Of a stretch of DNA of 36,046 bases, positions 960-7,054 are shown piece by piece. The notes beneath the pieces were generated by a model that searched no databases, was not told the DNA's origin, and was given only the letters and a program-made list of their open reading frames with translations. Every line of letters starts with the position of its first letter. Position 1 is the stretch's first letter. Position numbers and translations under genes: made by a program. This DNA is from Cyclobacteriaceae bacterium (GTDB lineage Bacteria > Bacteroidota > Bacteroidia > Cytophagales > Cyclobacteriaceae): positions 1 to 36,046 of the forward strand of contig JANYKP010000059.1 of NCBI GenBank assembly GCA_025358195.1, written 5' to 3'.

Positions 960-1919
960 GTGAAAAAGATAATACTCCTTTTAACCGTGTTATTATCCTT
1001 TGATGCCCTGGCCCAGCAGGACCCTCAGTTTACGCAATACATGTTCAATTCATTTTATTACAATCCAGCCTTCGCTGGCTCGGAGGGCGTCACCAAAATA
1101 ACCGGACTTTATCGAAGTCAGTGGCTGGGTTACTCGCCCACCTACGGAGACGGTGGCGCGCCAACGACACAGATACTGAGTGTGCATACGCCGATCGCCA
1201 AGCTCAAGGGTGGTGTAGGAGGTTACATAGTCAATGATAAACTGGGTCCTCTTACTAATTTTGAAGTCCAGGCATCGTACGCGTATTATATAAATGTGAA
1301 GGATGCCAAACTTAGTATTGGCGTACGAGGCGGGATGTTTTCTCAAAAAGTAGATTTTGATTTATATCGGGCGACGGATCAGAATGATCCTTTGCTGGCG
1401 GGAAAATCAGGCAAGGAATCACAAGTCCGACCGGATTTGGCGGTGGGCGCGCTTTATAGAAAGGACAAGTACTACATCGGCATAGGCCTCAATCATCTTA
1501 ACCAATCGAGTTATGATTTCGGCTTGACACAAAACAACCAGCTGAAACGCCACCTTTATGTTACGGGCAGTTACTTTTATGATCTCAATTTTGATGTTCG
1601 GCTGCAATTCGTAACCCTTATCAAGTCGGACTTCACCAAAACCTCCTTTGATGTCGGTGGCCTGGCTTATTTCAAGGTCATTATGTGGGGAGGCCTTTCA
1701 TTCCGGCAATCGGAAGCAGCCATTTTAATTTTGGGATATAGCCTGTTGAAAGATAAATCTTTGAAAGTTGGATATTCATTAGATTACATTGTGAAAGATC
1801 AGCAGGCAAAGCAGCCAACTTCGCATGAATTAATGGTTTCATACAGTTTGCCGGTCAATTCCAGTGGTAGAAAGCCCATTAAAACGCCTCGTTTTAATTA
1901 TGAAAGACCAAAGCGTTAA
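960..1919 (+). CDS. porP: Type IX secretion system outer-membrane beta-barrel, PorP/SprF family
   Basis: Signal peptide, AQQDPQFTQYMFN, YNPAFAG, YRSQW, GYSLD and SHE motifs; directly upstream of gldKLMN. Confidence 0.9.
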   Translation: MKKIILLLTVLLSFDALAQQDPQFTQYMFNSFYYNPAFAGSEGVTKITGLYRSQWLGYSPTYGDGGAPTTQILSVHTPIAKLKGGVGGYIVNDKLGPLTNFEVQASYAYYINVKDAKLSIGVRGGMFSQKVDFDLYRATDQNDPLLAGKSGKESQVRPDLAVGALYRKDKYYIGIGLNHLNQSSYDFGLTQNNQLKRHLYVTGSYFYDLNFDVRLQFVTLIKSDFTKTSFDVGGLAYFKVIMWGGLSFRQSEAAILILGYSLLKDKSLKVGYSLDYIVKDQQAKQPTSHELMVSYSLPVNSSGRKPIKTPRFNYERPKR

Positions 1920-2099: not shown

Positions 2100-3203
2100 A
2101 TGATTATGAATTTAAAGGTGACATCAAAAAGTCTAGGTTATGTGGCGCTGGCAACCATCTGTTTGTCAATTGCGGGTTGCGGCTTGCTGGGCATTGGTGG
2201 CAAGAAGGGTGGTGACCAGGGGGAATTGTTGGGGGTTCCCAACCGCGAAGGTTGGGTTATGCCAGGCCTGTATGGTATGGTGCCCATCCCGGCAGGCACA
2301 TTCCACATGGGGCAGGCAGATGAAGACCCTGCATCCACACAAATTAACTTTAACAAGCAAATCACCATCGGGCCATTCTTTATGGATGACACCGAGATCA
2401 CGAACAATGAGTATCGCCAGTTTACAAACTGGTTCCTGGTGGACAATGGAACGATTGAAGGTTTCCCTGCGGTAGACGCTGGGACGTTCAGACAAAAGTA
2501 TTACCCAGATACCACCTGCTGGGTGCGCGATTTTGCACATCACATGGGCGATCCTGTTCAGGACTACTATTATTGGCATCCGGGCTATGATGATTATCCT
2601 GTTGTGGGAATTAACTGGGATGCGGCAGTATTTTTTGGAAAATGGAGAACGGCCTACCTTAATGATTTCCGGAAGACCGTAGGTGAATTTCCAATGCCGG
2701 AATTTCGCCTTCCCTCTGAAGCGGAATGGGAATACGCAGCGCGTGGCGGAAGGGATATGGCAAAATATCCATGGGGTAACCCCTATATCCGTAACTCCAA
2801 AGGTTGTATGCTGGCGAACTTCAAGCCCGGAAGAGGTAACTTCTTCGATGATGGCTTTGCGTACACCTCCCCCGTTAGATCATACTTTGTGAATGATTAC
2901 GGGCTGTTTGATACTTCTGGCAACGTCTCTGAATGGTGTCTTGATGACTTCAATCCGGCCTCTGTGCCTACCGTGTGGGACCTGAACCCTCAATATATTG
3001 ATCCTCGCACAGATCCCGACAATAAGAAATTTAATGCCAAGATTCCCCCTAAGAAAGTTGTTCGTGGTGGTTCATGGAAAGATGTAGCGTATTACTTGGA
3101 AACGGGTACCAGAACCTATGAATTCAAAGACTCTTCGCGTGCTTATATTGGATTCCGTTGTGCCCTGACCCACCTGGGGCGGTCATCCGGGACCGAATTT
3201 TAA
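2100..3203 (+). CDS. gldK: Gliding motility/T9SS lipoprotein GldK (PorK), SUMF1/FGE-sulfatase fold
   Basis: Lipobox SIAG-C; GMVPIPAGTFHMG, FFMDDTEITNNEYRQF, YPVVG, FRLPSEAEWEYAARGG, GNVSEW, RGGSWKD and IGFRC motifs; first gene of the K-L-M-N order. Confidence 0.9.
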   Translation: MIMNLKVTSKSLGYVALATICLSIAGCGLLGIGGKKGGDQGELLGVPNREGWVMPGLYGMVPIPAGTFHMGQADEDPASTQINFNKQITIGPFFMDDTEITNNEYRQFTNWFLVDNGTIEGFPAVDAGTFRQKYYPDTTCWVRDFAHHMGDPVQDYYYWHPGYDDYPVVGINWDAAVFFGKWRTAYLNDFRKTVGEFPMPEFRLPSEAEWEYAARGGRDMAKYPWGNPYIRNSKGCMLANFKPGRGNFFDDGFAYTSPVRSYFVNDYGLFDTSGNVSEWCLDDFNPASVPTVWDLNPQYIDPRTDPDNKKFNAKIPPKKVVRGGSWKDVAYYLETGTRTYEFKDSSRAYIGFRCALTHLGRSSGTEF

Positions 3204-3282: not shown

Positions 3283-4113
3283 ATGGCAAAGAAAAAAGGC
3301 GGATTCATGCAATTGCTCTATGAAACCATCATGCCCAAGATATATGGAATTGGTGCGGCAGTCGTAATCATAGGTGCTCTCTTCAAAATTCTTCACTTAC
3401 CAGGAGCTAACCTGATGTTAATGATTGGTCTTTCAGTGGAGGCTGGCATTTTCTTCCTTAGCGCATTTGAGCCTAAGCACGAGGACCCAGATTGGTCAAA
3501 GGTTTATCCTGAGTTATCAGAAGAATATGAGGGTCCAGCCAATCAGACCGCTACCCGCATTAGCAATCGCCCGGGAGCAGGAGAATCACCCCTACTTAAG
3601 ATTGATGACATGCTAAAAACCGCCAAGGTTGATCAAAACCTCCTGGATAATCTGGGCAAGGGACTAACGAACCTTGCAACGTCCGCTACGCAAATGAATA
3701 ATCTTTCGAATGCGGCCGTAGCCACAAACGAATATGCGAAGAATGTGCAGGCGGCCTCCGCTTCACTCACAGAGATGAACAAGTCATATGGCTCGGCGAT
3801 GAAAGCCGTTTCAGCAATGGCCGATGCATCCAAAGATACGGGTGAGTATCACGCACAAGTGCAAAAAGTGACAAAGAATCTGGCGGCTCTCAATACCATT
3901 TATGAAATGGAATTGAAGGATGCCGATTCACATGTGAAGAATATGAATAAGTTCTACGAAAGCTTAACAGGTGCAATGCAAGGCCTGTCTTCCGTTGGAG
4001 CCAATACATCAAAATTCACTTCCGAATTGGGTAAGTTGACAGACAATCTCACTTCATTGAATAACGTATACGGAAGTATGTTAACAGCAATGAAAGGTTC
4101 TTCTGCAAAGTAA
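3283..4113 (+). CDS. gldL: Gliding motility/T9SS motor subunit GldL (PorL)
   Basis: YGIGAAVVIIGALFKILH, VEAGIFFLSAFEP, DWSKVYPEL and C-terminal LNNVYGSMLTAM. Confidence 0.95.
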   Translation: MAKKKGGFMQLLYETIMPKIYGIGAAVVIIGALFKILHLPGANLMLMIGLSVEAGIFFLSAFEPKHEDPDWSKVYPELSEEYEGPANQTATRISNRPGAGESPLLKIDDMLKTAKVDQNLLDNLGKGLTNLATSATQMNNLSNAAVATNEYAKNVQAASASLTEMNKSYGSAMKAVSAMADASKDTGEYHAQVQKVTKNLAALNTIYEMELKDADSHVKNMNKFYESLTGAMQGLSSVGANTSKFTSELGKLTDNLTSLNNVYGSMLTAMKGSSAK

Positions 4114-4167: not shown

Positions 4168-5799
4168 ATGTCAGGCGGTAAGGAAACTCCGAGGCAAAAG
4201 ATGATAGGTATGATGTACCTGGTGCTAACAGCCCTCTTAGCACTTAATGTAAGCAGCACGGTGCTTGAGAAGTTTGCCATTATGAATACCACCCTCATAG
4301 AATTGAGAGATGAAAGTACGTTGACGAACGAAGGGAAGCTGGCAAGGATTTTAAACCAAAAAAGTGATAATCCGCTTGTGAAGGATGCGATGGCAAAAGC
4401 CCAGCAAGTCCGAGACCTTACGAAAGCAACCATTAAATCGTTGGACAGTCTCAAGTCTGTGTTGAGCCAGGAGCATGATGGAACGCCGATCGAAGGCCCT
4501 GAACTGGTGGGCAATACAAACATTGCGGAAGAAAAAATGCTGAATGATAAATCAACACTGGCTCCCGATTACGAAAAGAAGTTGGTCAATTTCAAAGACA
4601 AGCTGGAAGTGCTTTCCGGAAAGAAGTTTAGTAAGCTTAATAAGAAAGCAGAAGACTTTCCTGAATTAGCAGAAAAAGACTCGGAGGGCAACATTGTAAA
4701 GAACGATGACGGCACACCGAAAGTAGAGCACGGTGAGCTTGACTTTATTGAATTCTCCTTTCATGGAAACCCTACGATGTCAGCCATCGCGGGTGTCTCC
4801 CAGATGCAAACGGAAATTTTGGAATATGAAGGGTTAGCACTTGATCGTTTGGATTCAATTGCGGGCTCTAAAAACTTCAACTTTGATAAGGTTGTGCCCA
4901 TGGTAATGGGGCCAAGCATTGTTGCTGTCGGCGCAAAGTACCAGGGACGATTGTTTATGGCGGGCGCCACGTCAGGTGGTCCTCCCCCACAGATGTTCAG
5001 GGATGGAACGGCTTTGACCGTGACGACAGACCCTGAAACCGGTATCAAGATGGCTATGATTGAGTTTTCCGCCAGGGCTGACGGAAGCTTTGATGCAAAT
5101 GGGATGGGTTCTGGGCATTTTAATACTGAAATACGAGTGGAAGGGAAAGACCCGCTTAAGAGAACAATTGACTACAAAGTAGTGGTACCTACGGTCGAGG
5201 TGGTCTCGGGCGCACGACCCTCTGCCTACTTAAATTGCGGTAACCCGATAACATTTAATTGTCCTGTGTTGGGTGAGTCGTACAATCCAAACTTTAGCTC
5301 AGCCGATCAGGTTACCATCATAAAGGGAGACCGTCCAGGGGTTACTACGCTTATTCCCAAGCAGAAAGGTCAGATCAAAGTAGTGGTGACGAATGCAGGA
5401 GTGCCCATCAGCACCAAGGCATTTGACGTGCTGCCGGTTCCGAATCCACACTATGTTGTAAAGGATGATAACGGTAAAGAAATTAATCCGAAAGATGGTG
5501 TGAGCAGCCCGGGAGGACTCCGGGTTTCGGCAGAAGCGGAAACCAACTTTAAGGCGGCATTGAAAGACGACTCAAAGTATCGTATACGCACCATGGAAGT
5601 CTATTGTAAAAAAGGCAACGGGGACCGCCGGTTTACACTCAATCCAACGTCTGAAATCATAGACTTATCTGCGTATAAGTCGCAGTTCCAGCGTGGCGAT
5701 CTTATCGTAATTGATATAAGAACGGTAACCAGGAAAACGTTTACCGGTGATGACGATAAAGTGGATTTCGTTGAAACAAAGTTTATTCCGATAAAATAA
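4168..5799 (+). CDS. gldM: Gliding motility/T9SS motor subunit GldM (PorM)
   Basis: N-terminal TPRQKMIGMMYLVLTALLALNVS signature followed by a large periplasmic region. Confidence 0.95.
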   Translation: MSGGKETPRQKMIGMMYLVLTALLALNVSSTVLEKFAIMNTTLIELRDESTLTNEGKLARILNQKSDNPLVKDAMAKAQQVRDLTKATIKSLDSLKSVLSQEHDGTPIEGPELVGNTNIAEEKMLNDKSTLAPDYEKKLVNFKDKLEVLSGKKFSKLNKKAEDFPELAEKDSEGNIVKNDDGTPKVEHGELDFIEFSFHGNPTMSAIAGVSQMQTEILEYEGLALDRLDSIAGSKNFNFDKVVPMVMGPSIVAVGAKYQGRLFMAGATSGGPPPQMFRDGTALTVTTDPETGIKMAMIEFSARADGSFDANGMGSGHFNTEIRVEGKDPLKRTIDYKVVVPTVEVVSGARPSAYLNCGNPITFNCPVLGESYNPNFSSADQVTIIKGDRPGVTTLIPKQKGQIKVVVTNAGVPISTKAFDVLPVPNPHYVVKDDNGKEINPKDGVSSPGGLRVSAEAETNFKAALKDDSKYRIRTMEVYCKKGNGDRRFTLNPTSEIIDLSAYKSQFQRGDLIVIDIRTVTRKTFTGDDDKVDFVETKFIPIK

Positions 5800-5809
5800 A
5801 TTTAAGGGT

Positions 5810-6895
5810 ATGAGGACCAAGAGGATCGTAGTTGGGTTGGCAATAGTCATGTTCTGTAACATTTGCGTTGCGCAGGATGAGGCGCAAGTGGATCCGAATT
5901 CACTACTCAAGATTCCCAAGTACGAACAAATGTATAAGGTGAGGGTTTGGAGGGCCATCAATCTTCGCGAGAAACAGAACAAGGGATTTTTTGCCAAGCG
6001 CAATGAGATCACCAAATTGATCATGAATGCGGTCAAGTCGGGTGAGTTGTCGGACTTTTATGAAGCGGATCTCGTAACAAAAATTCCAAAGGACAAATTC
6101 CTTTCAGGCCTTTTGTCAAAAGAGGGGGTAGTATTCCCAGAGTGGGTGGCGACGCAAAACTATACGCTCGGTGATAAGTATAGCTATAAGGGCGTCAATT
6201 ACGAAGCGAGCGATGATGCTCCTTCTAAAACACCATCTAACGACTCAAGAAGCTGGAAAAGAACAGGAAAAGGTAAAACCGCATTTGAAGCCTGGAGTGT
6301 TGAAAAAGCCTACAAGATTGGAGATAAAGTGGCTTTTGACGGAACGAATTATGAAACAATAGGAGACGTGCCGGTGATGAACCCCTCGACCGACAAGGAT
6401 CATTGGGCGGTGTCACCGGAAGGAAAGGCGATCAATGTGGAGCCTGCAGACGTATCCAAACTTACTCTTGTGGAGGATGTGATCTTTGATAAGAGGAGGT
6501 CGCGGTTGTACTACGATATGCTTGCCGTTGAGTTAAAGGCCTATATCCCGCTTGATAAGTCAAATCCTGATCCTGAGCAGGATGTTGCAAATGGTAGCTT
6601 TAAATCGCTTGGCTGGTTTCTGTATAAAGACCTCGAAAAAGTGTTCAGAGATCCAACGCACGTAGCCGAAGCCATTTGGTTCAACCGCCAAAACATGGCT
6701 GAAAAGAGAAATTATGCGGATGCGTTCCTGCTGCGCCTTTTCCACTGTACCATTGATAAGGTTGAAAACCCCGATGACGAAACAATATTTGAAACCTACA
6801 ACAACAACCGGCGCCCCTATAAGGAAGCCGTTTGGGCTACCGAGTGGGAAGAAATGAGACTGATGGAGAAAGAGCACAATTTGTGGGAATACTGA
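5810..6895 (+). CDS. gldN: Gliding motility/T9SS protein GldN (PorN) with two inserted CBM5/12-like repeats
   Basis: Signal peptide; RVWRAINLREKQN, EDVIFDKRRSRLYY, FLLRLF and C-terminal EHNLWEY; position after gldM. Confidence 0.93.
   Translation: MRTKRIVVGLAIVMFCNICVAQDEAQVDPNSLLKIPKYEQMYKVRVWRAINLREKQNKGFFAKRNEITKLIMNAVKSGELSDFYEADLVTKIPKDKFLSGLLSKEGVVFPEWVATQNYTLGDKYSYKGVNYEASDDAPSKTPSNDSRSWKRTGKGKTAFEAWSVEKAYKIGDKVAFDGTNYETIGDVPVMNPSTDKDHWAVSPEGKAINVEPADVSKLTLVEDVIFDKRRSRLYYDMLAVELKAYIPLDKSNPDPEQDVANGSFKSLGWFLYKDLEKVFRDPTHVAEAIWFNRQNMAEKRNYADAFLLRLFHCTIDKVENPDDETIFETYNNNRRPYKEAVWATEWEEMRLMEKEHNLWEY
6134..6406 (+). repeat. Tandem 41-aa protein repeats within GldN (150-nt period)
   Basis: FPEWVATQNYTLGDKYSYKGVNYEASDDAPSKTPSNDSRSW versus FEAWSVEKAYKIGDKVAFDGTNYETIGDVPVMNPSTDKDHW: ungapped, 16/41 identical by my count. 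Confidence 0.85.
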
Positions 6896-6915
6896 TCCCT
6901 ATCTGCTGATATAAG

Positions 6916-6948
6916 AAAATGCCTGGTTTATCCAGGCATTTTTGTTTT
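6916..6948 (+). terminator. Intrinsic terminator after gldN (possibly bidirectional with uvrC)
   Basis: AAAATGCCTGG-TTTAT-CCAGGCATTTT stem followed by TGTTTT; A-tract on the other side. Confidence 0.85.
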
Positions 6949-7054
6949 ACAGAAGGGCTTATCTGAGTTCGATTTGGAATGCAGGAGGGCCATGTAAGAA
7001 TGGACAAAATCAGGCTGAAAAAACAGGCAATGTGAAGCCAGCGTGAGGCACCTT

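What the first reader, a model, noticed from the sequence alone, without database searches (positions are those of the whole stretch)
6134..6406. GldN carries two tandem CBM5/12-like (chitin-binding type 3) modules inside its core
Seen: residues ~109-149 and ~159-199 are an ungapped 41-aa duplication with consensus W-x5-Y-x2-GDK-x2-(Y/F)-x-G-x-NYE-x9-PS-x-D-x3-W, flanked by normal GldN motifs. Established: W-x5-Y-x2-GD-x-V-x-Y-x-G-x2-Y...P...W is the CBM5/12 (ChtBD3) pattern, and as far as I know the characterised GldN/PorN proteins have no such domain. Inference: the periplasmic GldKN ring or track would display many small glycan-binding-fold modules, possibly contacting GlcNAc-containing peptidoglycan or glycosylated cargo. 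This would be an undescribed link between gliding machinery and cell wall. Caveat: the exposed aromatic pair (AKWW-type) used by many CBM5/12 domains is absent, so they may be protein-interaction modules.
Basis: partly seen in the sequence, partly recalled or inferred. Interest (0 to 1): 0.75.

Follow-up and report, generated by a model that had tools for sequence, protein, structure and literature searches.

The report
Chitin-binder fold on gliding gear tooth
In one group of Cytophagales bacteria the gliding and secretion protein GldN carries a small domain with the predicted fold of a chitin-binding module (two copies here) that lacks the sugar-gripping residues and likely serves as the tooth that the motor's arm pushes against, because its charge mirrors the charge of that arm's tip across species.

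Summary
The repeat is real: residues 109-149 and 159-199 of a normal gldN (gldKLMN operon), 16 of 41 identical without gaps. Both copies have the CBM5/12 fold (Pfam; AlphaFold plus VIA, Z 6.7-8.6) but lack every surface aromatic that CBM5 uses to bind chitin. One module is the rule in a clade of GTDB-sense Cyclobacteriaceae (116 of 121 nearest proteins). Two copies arose at least twice. The module replaces the variable tip of a GldN hairpin; other Cytophagales carry an acidic floppy loop there. The main new result: across 139 Cytophagales gldM-gldN pairs, the net charge of this tip moves against the charge of GldM's end domain D4 (independent contrasts r = -0.52; -0.54 with module, -0.52 without). 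No other GldN segment does so. The module is most likely a folded, acidic tooth that the motor tip engages, not a cell-wall binder. Direct binding is not shown. The scan earlier noted the GldN module in two other genomes (e1-5209395, e1-5201783); their summaries mention neither doubling nor the GldM link. New variant of a known machine; interest 0.5.

The parts
5810..6895 (+). gldN, 361 aa, the only GldN match in this genome (80% complete); N-terminal signal peptide judged by eye
   Evidence: PorN fold Z 13-15.9
6113..6121 (+). Outgoing stalk strand (residues 102-104) after the helix at residues 94-100
   Evidence: DSSP of the AlphaFold model
6134..6265 (+). CBM5/12-fold module 1 (residues 109-152), net charge about +1; core W112, Y118, Y131, P142, W149 kept
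6212..6217 (+). D135-D136, the position of the CBM5 WW/YW chitin-binding pair in module 1
6284..6415 (+). CBM5/12-fold module 2 (residues 159-202), net charge about -5, like the single module of relatives
6362..6367 (+). G185-D186, the position of the CBM5 WW/YW pair in module 2
6431..6436 (+). Returning stalk strand (residues 208-209), leading into the long strand 215-227
   Evidence: DSSP
6485..6502 (+). Loop at residues 226-231, equal to PorN F179-S184, which inserts into PorK; it marks the membrane-side end of the long strand, opposite the insert
6068..6076 (+). D87-L88-V89: the D-S/T-x O-glycosylation sequon of single-module relatives is missing here
   Evidence: sequon in 116 of 116 single-module and 0 of 5 double-module proteins; motif as given in PMC12365241
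4168..5799 (+). gldM, motor arm with four periplasmic domains
5434..5796 (+). GldM D4 (residues 423-543), inferred partner of the GldN tip; strongest covarying window is residues 432-452 (nt 5461-5520)
3283..4113 (+). gldL
2100..3203 (+). gldK lipoprotein
   Evidence: TIGR03525 434.7 bits against cut-off 350
960..1919 (+). PorP/SprF-family beta-barrel gene upstream of the operon
6903..6955 (+). Inverted repeat followed by a T-run, likely the operon's terminator

Best explanation
The two CBM5/12-fold modules are likely a folded, acidic tooth at the periplasm-facing tip of GldN that the basic end domain (D4) of the GldM motor arm would engage electrostatically to push the GldKN ring or GldJKN track. 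Shown: the fold (by prediction and profile), the loss of the chitin-binding aromatics, the insertion site in a variable hairpin, and the charge covariation with D4. Inferred: that this site faces the periplasm and touches D4. One ancestor in a Cyclobacteriaceae (GTDB-sense) clade likely replaced its floppy acidic loop with a borrowed CBM5/12-type domain. Later tandem duplications (at least two) gave a two-lobed tip in which copy 2 keeps the acidic character and copy 1 is neutral, probably a spacer or near-neutral extra.
For: (1) Site: the insert replaces the hairpin of PorN Y144-K157. It enters the long strand whose far end is the PorK-binding loop F179-S184, so it should lie at the end away from GldK (geometric inference). 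(2) Published models place PorM D4 between negatively charged PorN cogs (PMC12365241; PMC12635249) and on PorN loops 6 and 4, with loop 7 being the PorK-binding loop (PMC12421860); equating loop 6 with this hairpin is my inference from the numbering. (3) Charge covariation in 139 gldM-gldN pairs: tip against D4, independent contrasts r -0.52 (opposite sign in 74 of 101), -0.54 in 52 module-bearing and -0.52 in 87 module-free pairs; tip against D3 -0.26, D2 0.06, D1 +0.23; GldN core against D4 -0.06. Of 10 GldN segments only the tip covaries; partial r -0.48 after GldK, GldL, core and D1 charge (90 pairs); r -0.34 after dropping the 10 largest contrasts. Tip length does not covary (0.03). (4) The tip is net acidic in 123 of 139 and D4 net basic in 138 of 139; 54 of 59 modules are acidic. 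(5) The CBM5 WW positions are aromatic in 13 of 59 and 0 of 59 modules. (6) The same fold has structural roles in phage proteins: T4 gp23/gp24 insertion domain bridging neighbours, Milano gp124 tail-binding module, a Mu gp36-like connector carrying a similar module.
Against: No direct evidence of contact. The covariation is of net charge, not of residue pairs. Tip acidity also tracks GldL charge (r +0.54), so habitat salinity is a partial confounder, and GldK charge also covaries weakly with D4 (-0.30). In 13 pairs from other orders the trend is absent or reversed (Spearman +0.50, p 0.08), and Flavobacterium-type tips are basic beside a basic D4. Some Cytophagales have almost no tip (12-16 residues), so it is not essential for motor coupling. 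Fuchsbauer et al. placed the F. johnsoniae extra loop near the C-terminus and suggested GldK binding. The published PorM cross-link is to PorN A241, a core residue. Loci were picked from listed hits, not at random.
Confidence: 0.55

Rival explanations
1. The module is a structural bridge or decoration that packs on the neighbouring GldN, GldK or GldJ subunit and stiffens the ring or track, as the chitin-binding-like insertion domain does in the T4 capsid.
For: Fold match to T4 gp24/gp23 (Z 5.1-5.6) and its bridging role (PMC3185693). PorN-PorN contacts are weak in the solved ring. Fuchsbauer et al. proposed that the F. johnsoniae loop binds GldK. The core aromatics and P are strictly kept.
Against: It does not explain the charge covariation with GldM D4. 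Tip charge moves in the same direction as GldK charge (r +0.36), not against it. It is not exclusive of the best explanation.
Confidence: 0.17
2. The module binds sugar (peptidoglycan GlcNAc, or O-glycans of cargo or of the machine's own subunits) through a non-canonical site built from the Tyr after the core Tyr and the Asp/Asn at the second W position.
For: CBM5/12 fold. In single-module proteins that position is aromatic in 206 of 260; it sits next to the W-pair position in the model's strand register (inferred from DSSP bridges). One lineage also has F/Y at the first W position.
Against: Both copies in this window lack all of these aromatics, as do 10 of 10 doubles scored. Strongly acidic modules would be repelled by peptidoglycan carboxylates (inference). 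A moving track would be slowed by binding the wall (inference). The exposed Tyr does not covary with the nearby glycosylation sequon among single-module proteins. No other CBM5/12 was found in this genome.
Confidence: 0.12
3. The insert is tolerated filler in a permissive loop; the fold is kept only to stay soluble and the duplication is neutral.
For: The site takes anything from 12 to 123 residues, folded or not. Duplications are rare (5 of 121; 6 of 120, or 7 counting P0275 by eye) and lose the exposed Tyr.
Against: The single module is kept across a deep clade (53 of 56 rows by HMM) with conserved surface D/N at the second W position (53 of 59), and tip charge tracks D4 charge. For the second copy alone, neutrality remains quite possible.
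Confidence: 0.16

Closest known systems
GldN/PorN (PF19841, TIGR03523); P. gingivalis PorKN ring, PDB 9mzu, 9myj, 9ots, 7pvh
   Same: Core fold (VIA Z 13.0-15.9, rmsd 3.3-4.4 A over 155-196 residues), gldKLMN operon, PorK-binding loop position.
   Different: PorN has a short hairpin where this protein has about 100 residues forming two globular modules.
F. johnsoniae GldN 'extra loop' (PMC8861641)
   Same: A roughly 40-residue charged insertion in the same helix-to-strand segment; Flavobacterium-type sequences align to this site.
   Different: That loop is basic in the Flavobacterium-type loci seen here and has no CBM5/12 match; the paper suggested GldK as its partner.
CBM5/CBM12 chitin-binding domains (S. 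griseus ChiC 2d49, S. marcescens ChiB, C. violaceum 4tx8, B. circulans ChiA1 1ed7, CjCBM5 6z40)
   Same: Fold (module 1 alone: Z 7.5, rmsd 1.5 A over 47 residues to 4tx8), length, and core aromatics.
   Different: No WW/YW pair and no third surface aromatic; sits inside a periplasmic motor-track subunit, not on a secreted enzyme; usually acidic.
CBM5/12-like structural modules of phage particles (T4 gp23/gp24 insertion domain; Milano gp124 and 7-7-1 tail-fibre N-terminal repeats; Pa193 baseplate)
   Same: Same fold (Z 5.1-7.4); tandem copies in gp124 (best PDB sequence hit to the double insert, E 0.048); described as bridging or tail-binding parts.
   Different: Those are static joints in a virion; here the module is on a moving track and its charge covaries with a motor arm.

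Membership tests
GldN/PorN | Profile match above the curated cut-off | tested here: met
   PF19841 170.8 bits (cut-off 23), TIGR03523 107.2 (cut-off 85.9)
GldN/PorN | Fourth gene of a gldK-gldL-gldM-gldN operon | tested here: met
GldN/PorN | PorN core fold | tested here: met
   Foldseek and VIA top hits 9mzu, 9myj, 9ots, 7pvh, on a predicted model
GldN/PorN | Assembles with GldK into a ring or track | not testable with these tools
   needs cryo-EM or biochemistry
CBM5/12 (PF02839) | Profile match | tested here: met
   42.9 bits for both copies together (cut-off 26.2); each copy alone 24.0-24.7 bits, just below
CBM5/12 (PF02839) | Small beta 'ski-boot' fold with core Tyr and Trp (Y265, W299 in CjCBM5) | tested here: met
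   model pLDDT 86; Z 6.4-7.5 to six chitinase/deacetylase CBMs; core columns aromatic in 58-59 of 59 modules
CBM5 (functional chitin binder) | Exposed YW/WW aromatic pair | tested here: not met
   D135-D136 and G185-D186; clade-wide 13 of 59 and 0 of 59 aromatic; definition from PMC8449059
CBM5 (functional chitin binder) | Third surface aromatic three residues before the last Trp (Y296 in CjCBM5; less conserved in the family) | tested here: not met
   S146 and K196 in the two copies (sequence)
CBM12 (ChiA1 type) | Exposed Trp two residues before the conserved Pro (recalled as W687, the binding residue; the label is from memory) | tested here: not met
   K140 and M190 here; aromatic in 2 of 59 modules
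CBM5/12 (functional) | Binds chitin or another glycan | not testable with these tools
   needs a binding assay

The most novel reading that the evidence does not exclude
The hairpin tip of GldN is the exchangeable gear tooth of the Bacteroidota gliding/T9SS track: a short hairpin, an acidic floppy loop or a recruited chitin-binder fold all do the same job of catching the motor arm, and its charge is tuned against GldM D4. The one- and two-module forms would be rigid, defined teeth that make motor-to-track coupling directly testable, and tooth size or charge would set grip or gearing.
Probability: 0.45. Interest if true: 0.7.

Novelty: new variant of a known kind. Interest (0 to 1): 0.5.

Why it matters
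How the GldLM motor grips and drives the GldKN ring or GldJKN track is open: the published motor-track models have weak confidence scores (ipTM 0.47 in PMC12365241; 'weak' in PMC12635249). This finding names a specific segment of GldN and a specific stretch of GldM D4 whose charges move against each other across Cytophagales. It also offers natural variants (no tip, floppy tip, one or two folded domains) for swap experiments. A folded tip should be visible in cryo-EM where a floppy loop is not. It is also a clear case of a carbohydrate-binding fold reused without its binding residues, a warning against reading 'CBM5/12' in an annotation as chitin or cell-wall binding.

Tried and rejected
Complex prediction of GldN 26-361 with GldM D4 gave no verdict (score 0.00, mark 0.32); it is not used as evidence either way. 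Assembly artefact or recent duplication: rejected (58 of 123 DNA identity; four other double-module clusters at 69-96% identity). Single origin of all doubles: rejected (AU p 4.4e-7). Idea that the exposed Tyr binds GldN's own O-glycan: no covariation of Tyr and sequon among 260 single-module proteins, though only 7 independent pairs, so the test is weak. Tip length as the driver of D4 charge: r 0.03. Donor of the module: not resolved; chitinase CBMs, phage tail repeats and long collagen/repeat proteins score similarly. The first-pass module profile missed divergent copies (for example G152), so genome tallies are lower bounds. P0145 did not match the module profile (E 0.064) although it lies in the module clade; P0142 did (E 9.6e-5); P0135 was judged by eye only. 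Direct sequence search of the PDB with this GldN did not find PorN; the mapping went through a Bacteroidales-like homologue. Literature searches for a CBM in GldN (listings only) showed no title or abstract on it; a search for CBM_5_12 with peptidoglycan and endolysin returned 0 papers. Figures and supplements of the PorKN papers were not seen and may define the cogs and loop numbers exactly.

Full report
Observation. The window holds porP-family, gldK, gldL, gldM and gldN genes in a row on the + strand, followed by a hairpin and T-run. gldN (5810-6895, 361 aa) is the only GldN match in this 80% complete genome; a GldJ-like gene lies on another contig (below the TIGR03524 cut-off). A public Cyclobacteriaceae MAG record encodes a 100% identical GldN (L004). 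Residues 109-149 and 159-199 are an ungapped repeat, 16 of 41 identical, score 94 against a shuffle maximum of 42. Both copies hit Pfam CBM_5_12. No other CBM5/12-like module was found in the genome.

Structure. AlphaFold2 on a 36-row alignment gave pLDDT 78-89 over the modules. The core matches PorN (Z 13.0-15.9) and the insert matches CBM5/12 domains of chitinases and chitin deacetylases (best Z 8.6, rmsd 1.7 A over 51 residues), then phage tail, capsid and injection-system domains. Module 1 folded alone (pLDDT 86); in a wide search its top six hits were chitinase or deacetylase CBMs (Z 6.4-7.5), followed by phage tail and T4 gp24/gp23 domains. The tool notes that Z under 8 is common, so the case rests on the Pfam match, near full-length coverage and low rmsd together.

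Binding residues. PMC8449059 (passages read) defines the CBM5 binding face as a YW/WW pair plus a less conserved third aromatic, with two core aromatics. An ungapped alignment to ChiC CBM5 puts the pair at D135-D136 and G185-D186; the third site is S146/K196. In 59 diverse modules the pair positions are aromatic in 13 and 0, the CBM12 Trp position in 2, while core W, Y, Y, P and W are kept in 58-59. The position after the core Tyr is aromatic in 206 of 260 single-module proteins and 0 of 10 doubles scored (27 of 297 proteins could not be scored). So this protein's modules have the fold but no visible sugar platform.

Distribution. Of the 121 proteins (query included), 116 have one module and 5 have two; of 80 genome loci, 79 have one and 1 (the identical record) two. 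Named carriers include Chryseolinea, Chryseosolibacter indicus and uncultured Ohtaekwangia. In the family-wide search 62 of 301 genomes matched the module profile; of 20 matches fetched, 18 were GldN and 2 were other proteins. None of 78 gldN genes from 16 other Cytophagales family groups carried it. In a tree of 197 GldN cores with the insert left out, all 53 module-bearing rows fall in one 56-row clade (FastTree support 88, not starred); of the 3 others, one matches the profile, one does not, one was judged by eye. A second lineage of doubles exists (6 of 120 by HMM, 7 with P0275 by eye), and one origin for all doubles is rejected (AU p 4.4e-7). In both lineages copy 1 is neutral (0 to +1, with -1 in P0003/P0004) and copy 2 acidic (-4 to -5, -1 in P0276).

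The site. It aligns to PorN Y144-K157. The long strand ends in the loop equal to PorN F179-S184, which inserts into PorK (PMC12365241, section 6 and passages read). The insert therefore leaves the subunit at the opposite, periplasm-facing end; this is an inference, as no coordinates were available. That paper models the basic PorM D4 tip between acidic PorN cogs (ipTM 0.47). PMC12421860 (passages and sections 11, 13 read) has PorM binding loops 6 and 4, and loop 7 binding PorK; I take loop 6 to be this hairpin but could not see the figure. PMC12635249 (outline, passages and section 11 read) puts D4 in the cleft between PorN copies and makes GldJKN the moving track. [quoted passage not shown] PMC12239597 (passages) added nothing on this loop.

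Charge covariation. Of 205 loci, 187 held adjacent gldM and gldN; close relatives were thinned to 25, leaving 139 pairs. The loci were chosen from listed hits, not at random. On a tree built without the tip and D4, tip charge and D4 charge covary negatively: r -0.52 overall (opposite sign in 74 of 101 contrasts, p 3e-6), -0.54 in 52 module-bearing pairs (sign-flip p 0.007) and -0.52 in 87 pairs without module. The effect fades down the arm (D3 -0.26, D2 0.06, D1 +0.23) and the GldN core shows none (-0.06). Only 1 of 10 GldN segments covaries with D4; in GldM the signal is strongest at residues 432-452 (-0.43), with weaker signals at 492-532 and 372-392 (about -0.25) among 16 windows. It survives control for GldK, GldL, core and D1 charge (-0.48, 90 pairs) and removal of the 10 largest contrasts (-0.34). 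Against: tip acidity also follows GldL charge (+0.54), which suggests a salinity component; GldK charge covaries weakly with D4 (-0.30); 13 pairs from other orders show no such trend (+0.50, p 0.08). This window's pair is at the mild end (tip -3, D4 +2).

Mechanism. Most likely the module is a rigid version of the acidic tip that the motor arm catches, giving a salt-bridge grip that can make and break as the arm turns (0.55). Shown: fold, missing aromatics, site, distribution, covariation. Inferred: orientation in the ring and contact with D4. Rivals: bridge to neighbouring subunits as in T4 gp23/gp24 (PMC3185693, one passage read) or the Milano gp124 tail-binding module (PMC10811340, passages read) (0.17); tolerated filler (0.16); sugar or peptidoglycan binding (0.12, and lower for the doubled form). 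The second copy may well be neutral.

Novelty. The protein is a member of GldN/PorN. The modules belong to the CBM5/12 fold family but fail the test for a working chitin-binding CBM5 or CBM12. Pfam annotations in the protein database already list both families on some of these proteins, but four searches of the open library (listings only) showed no paper describing it; subscription papers and supplements were not searched. Two earlier reports of this scan describe the GldN module in other genomes and also judged it a structural add-on with unknown partner; I read them after reaching my own view. The repeated doubling and the GldM D4 covariation are not in their summaries. Verdict: new variant of a known kind, interest 0.5; the gear-tooth reading would deserve 0.7 if confirmed.

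Noticed in passing
L084-L113, L174-L175, L220-L277 (GldN tip segment): Module-free Cytophagales GldN tips carry repeated short acid-plus-aromatic motifs (Asp-Asp-Gly-Trp-Gly type, up to three per loop in one family group), present in 52 of 74 loops of 30 aa or more; they look like linear binding motifs.
   Followed up: partly
P0244, P0252, P0257: Divergent 507-576 aa proteins that look like two fused GldN-like halves, each with its own CBM5/12-type module at the same site; possible GldN paralogue family.
   Followed up: partly
L171:610-1230: Mu gp36-like phage protein with a module of the same WW-less type inserted, in a same-family genome; a possible route of origin for the GldN module.
   Followed up: partly
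L170:455-1093: 213-aa protein with a likely signal peptide, no Pfam match, and one module very like the GldN module.
   Followed up: partly
window 6068-6076: The O-glycosylation sequon near GldN D87 is present in 116 of 116 single-module neighbours and absent from 5 of 5 doubles of this lineage and 5 of 6 of the second; this GldN has no sequon at all.
   Followed up: yes
window 960-1919: The PorP/SprF-family gene before gldK has no cysteines in its C-terminal tail, so it is unlikely to be the disulfide-linked SprF; GldK keeps a Lys-Gly-Cys-Met version of the reactive cysteine motif.
   Followed up: no
window 4168-5799: GldM (543 aa) is 10-20 residues longer than close relatives (520-532 aa), apparently by an acidic insert in D1.
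   Followed up: no
P0162, P0193, P0201, P0206-P0208: Very long proteins with 8-39 tandem CBM5/12-like repeats, several with collagen, Mtd_N, BclA or CBM96 domains; likely fibres or surface proteins.
   Followed up: no
L147, L152, L153, L178; L240, L253, L259, L261, L264, L265, L269: Lineages whose GldN has almost no tip (12-16 residues) and often a more acidic core; useful natural controls for the gear-tooth idea.
   Followed up: partly
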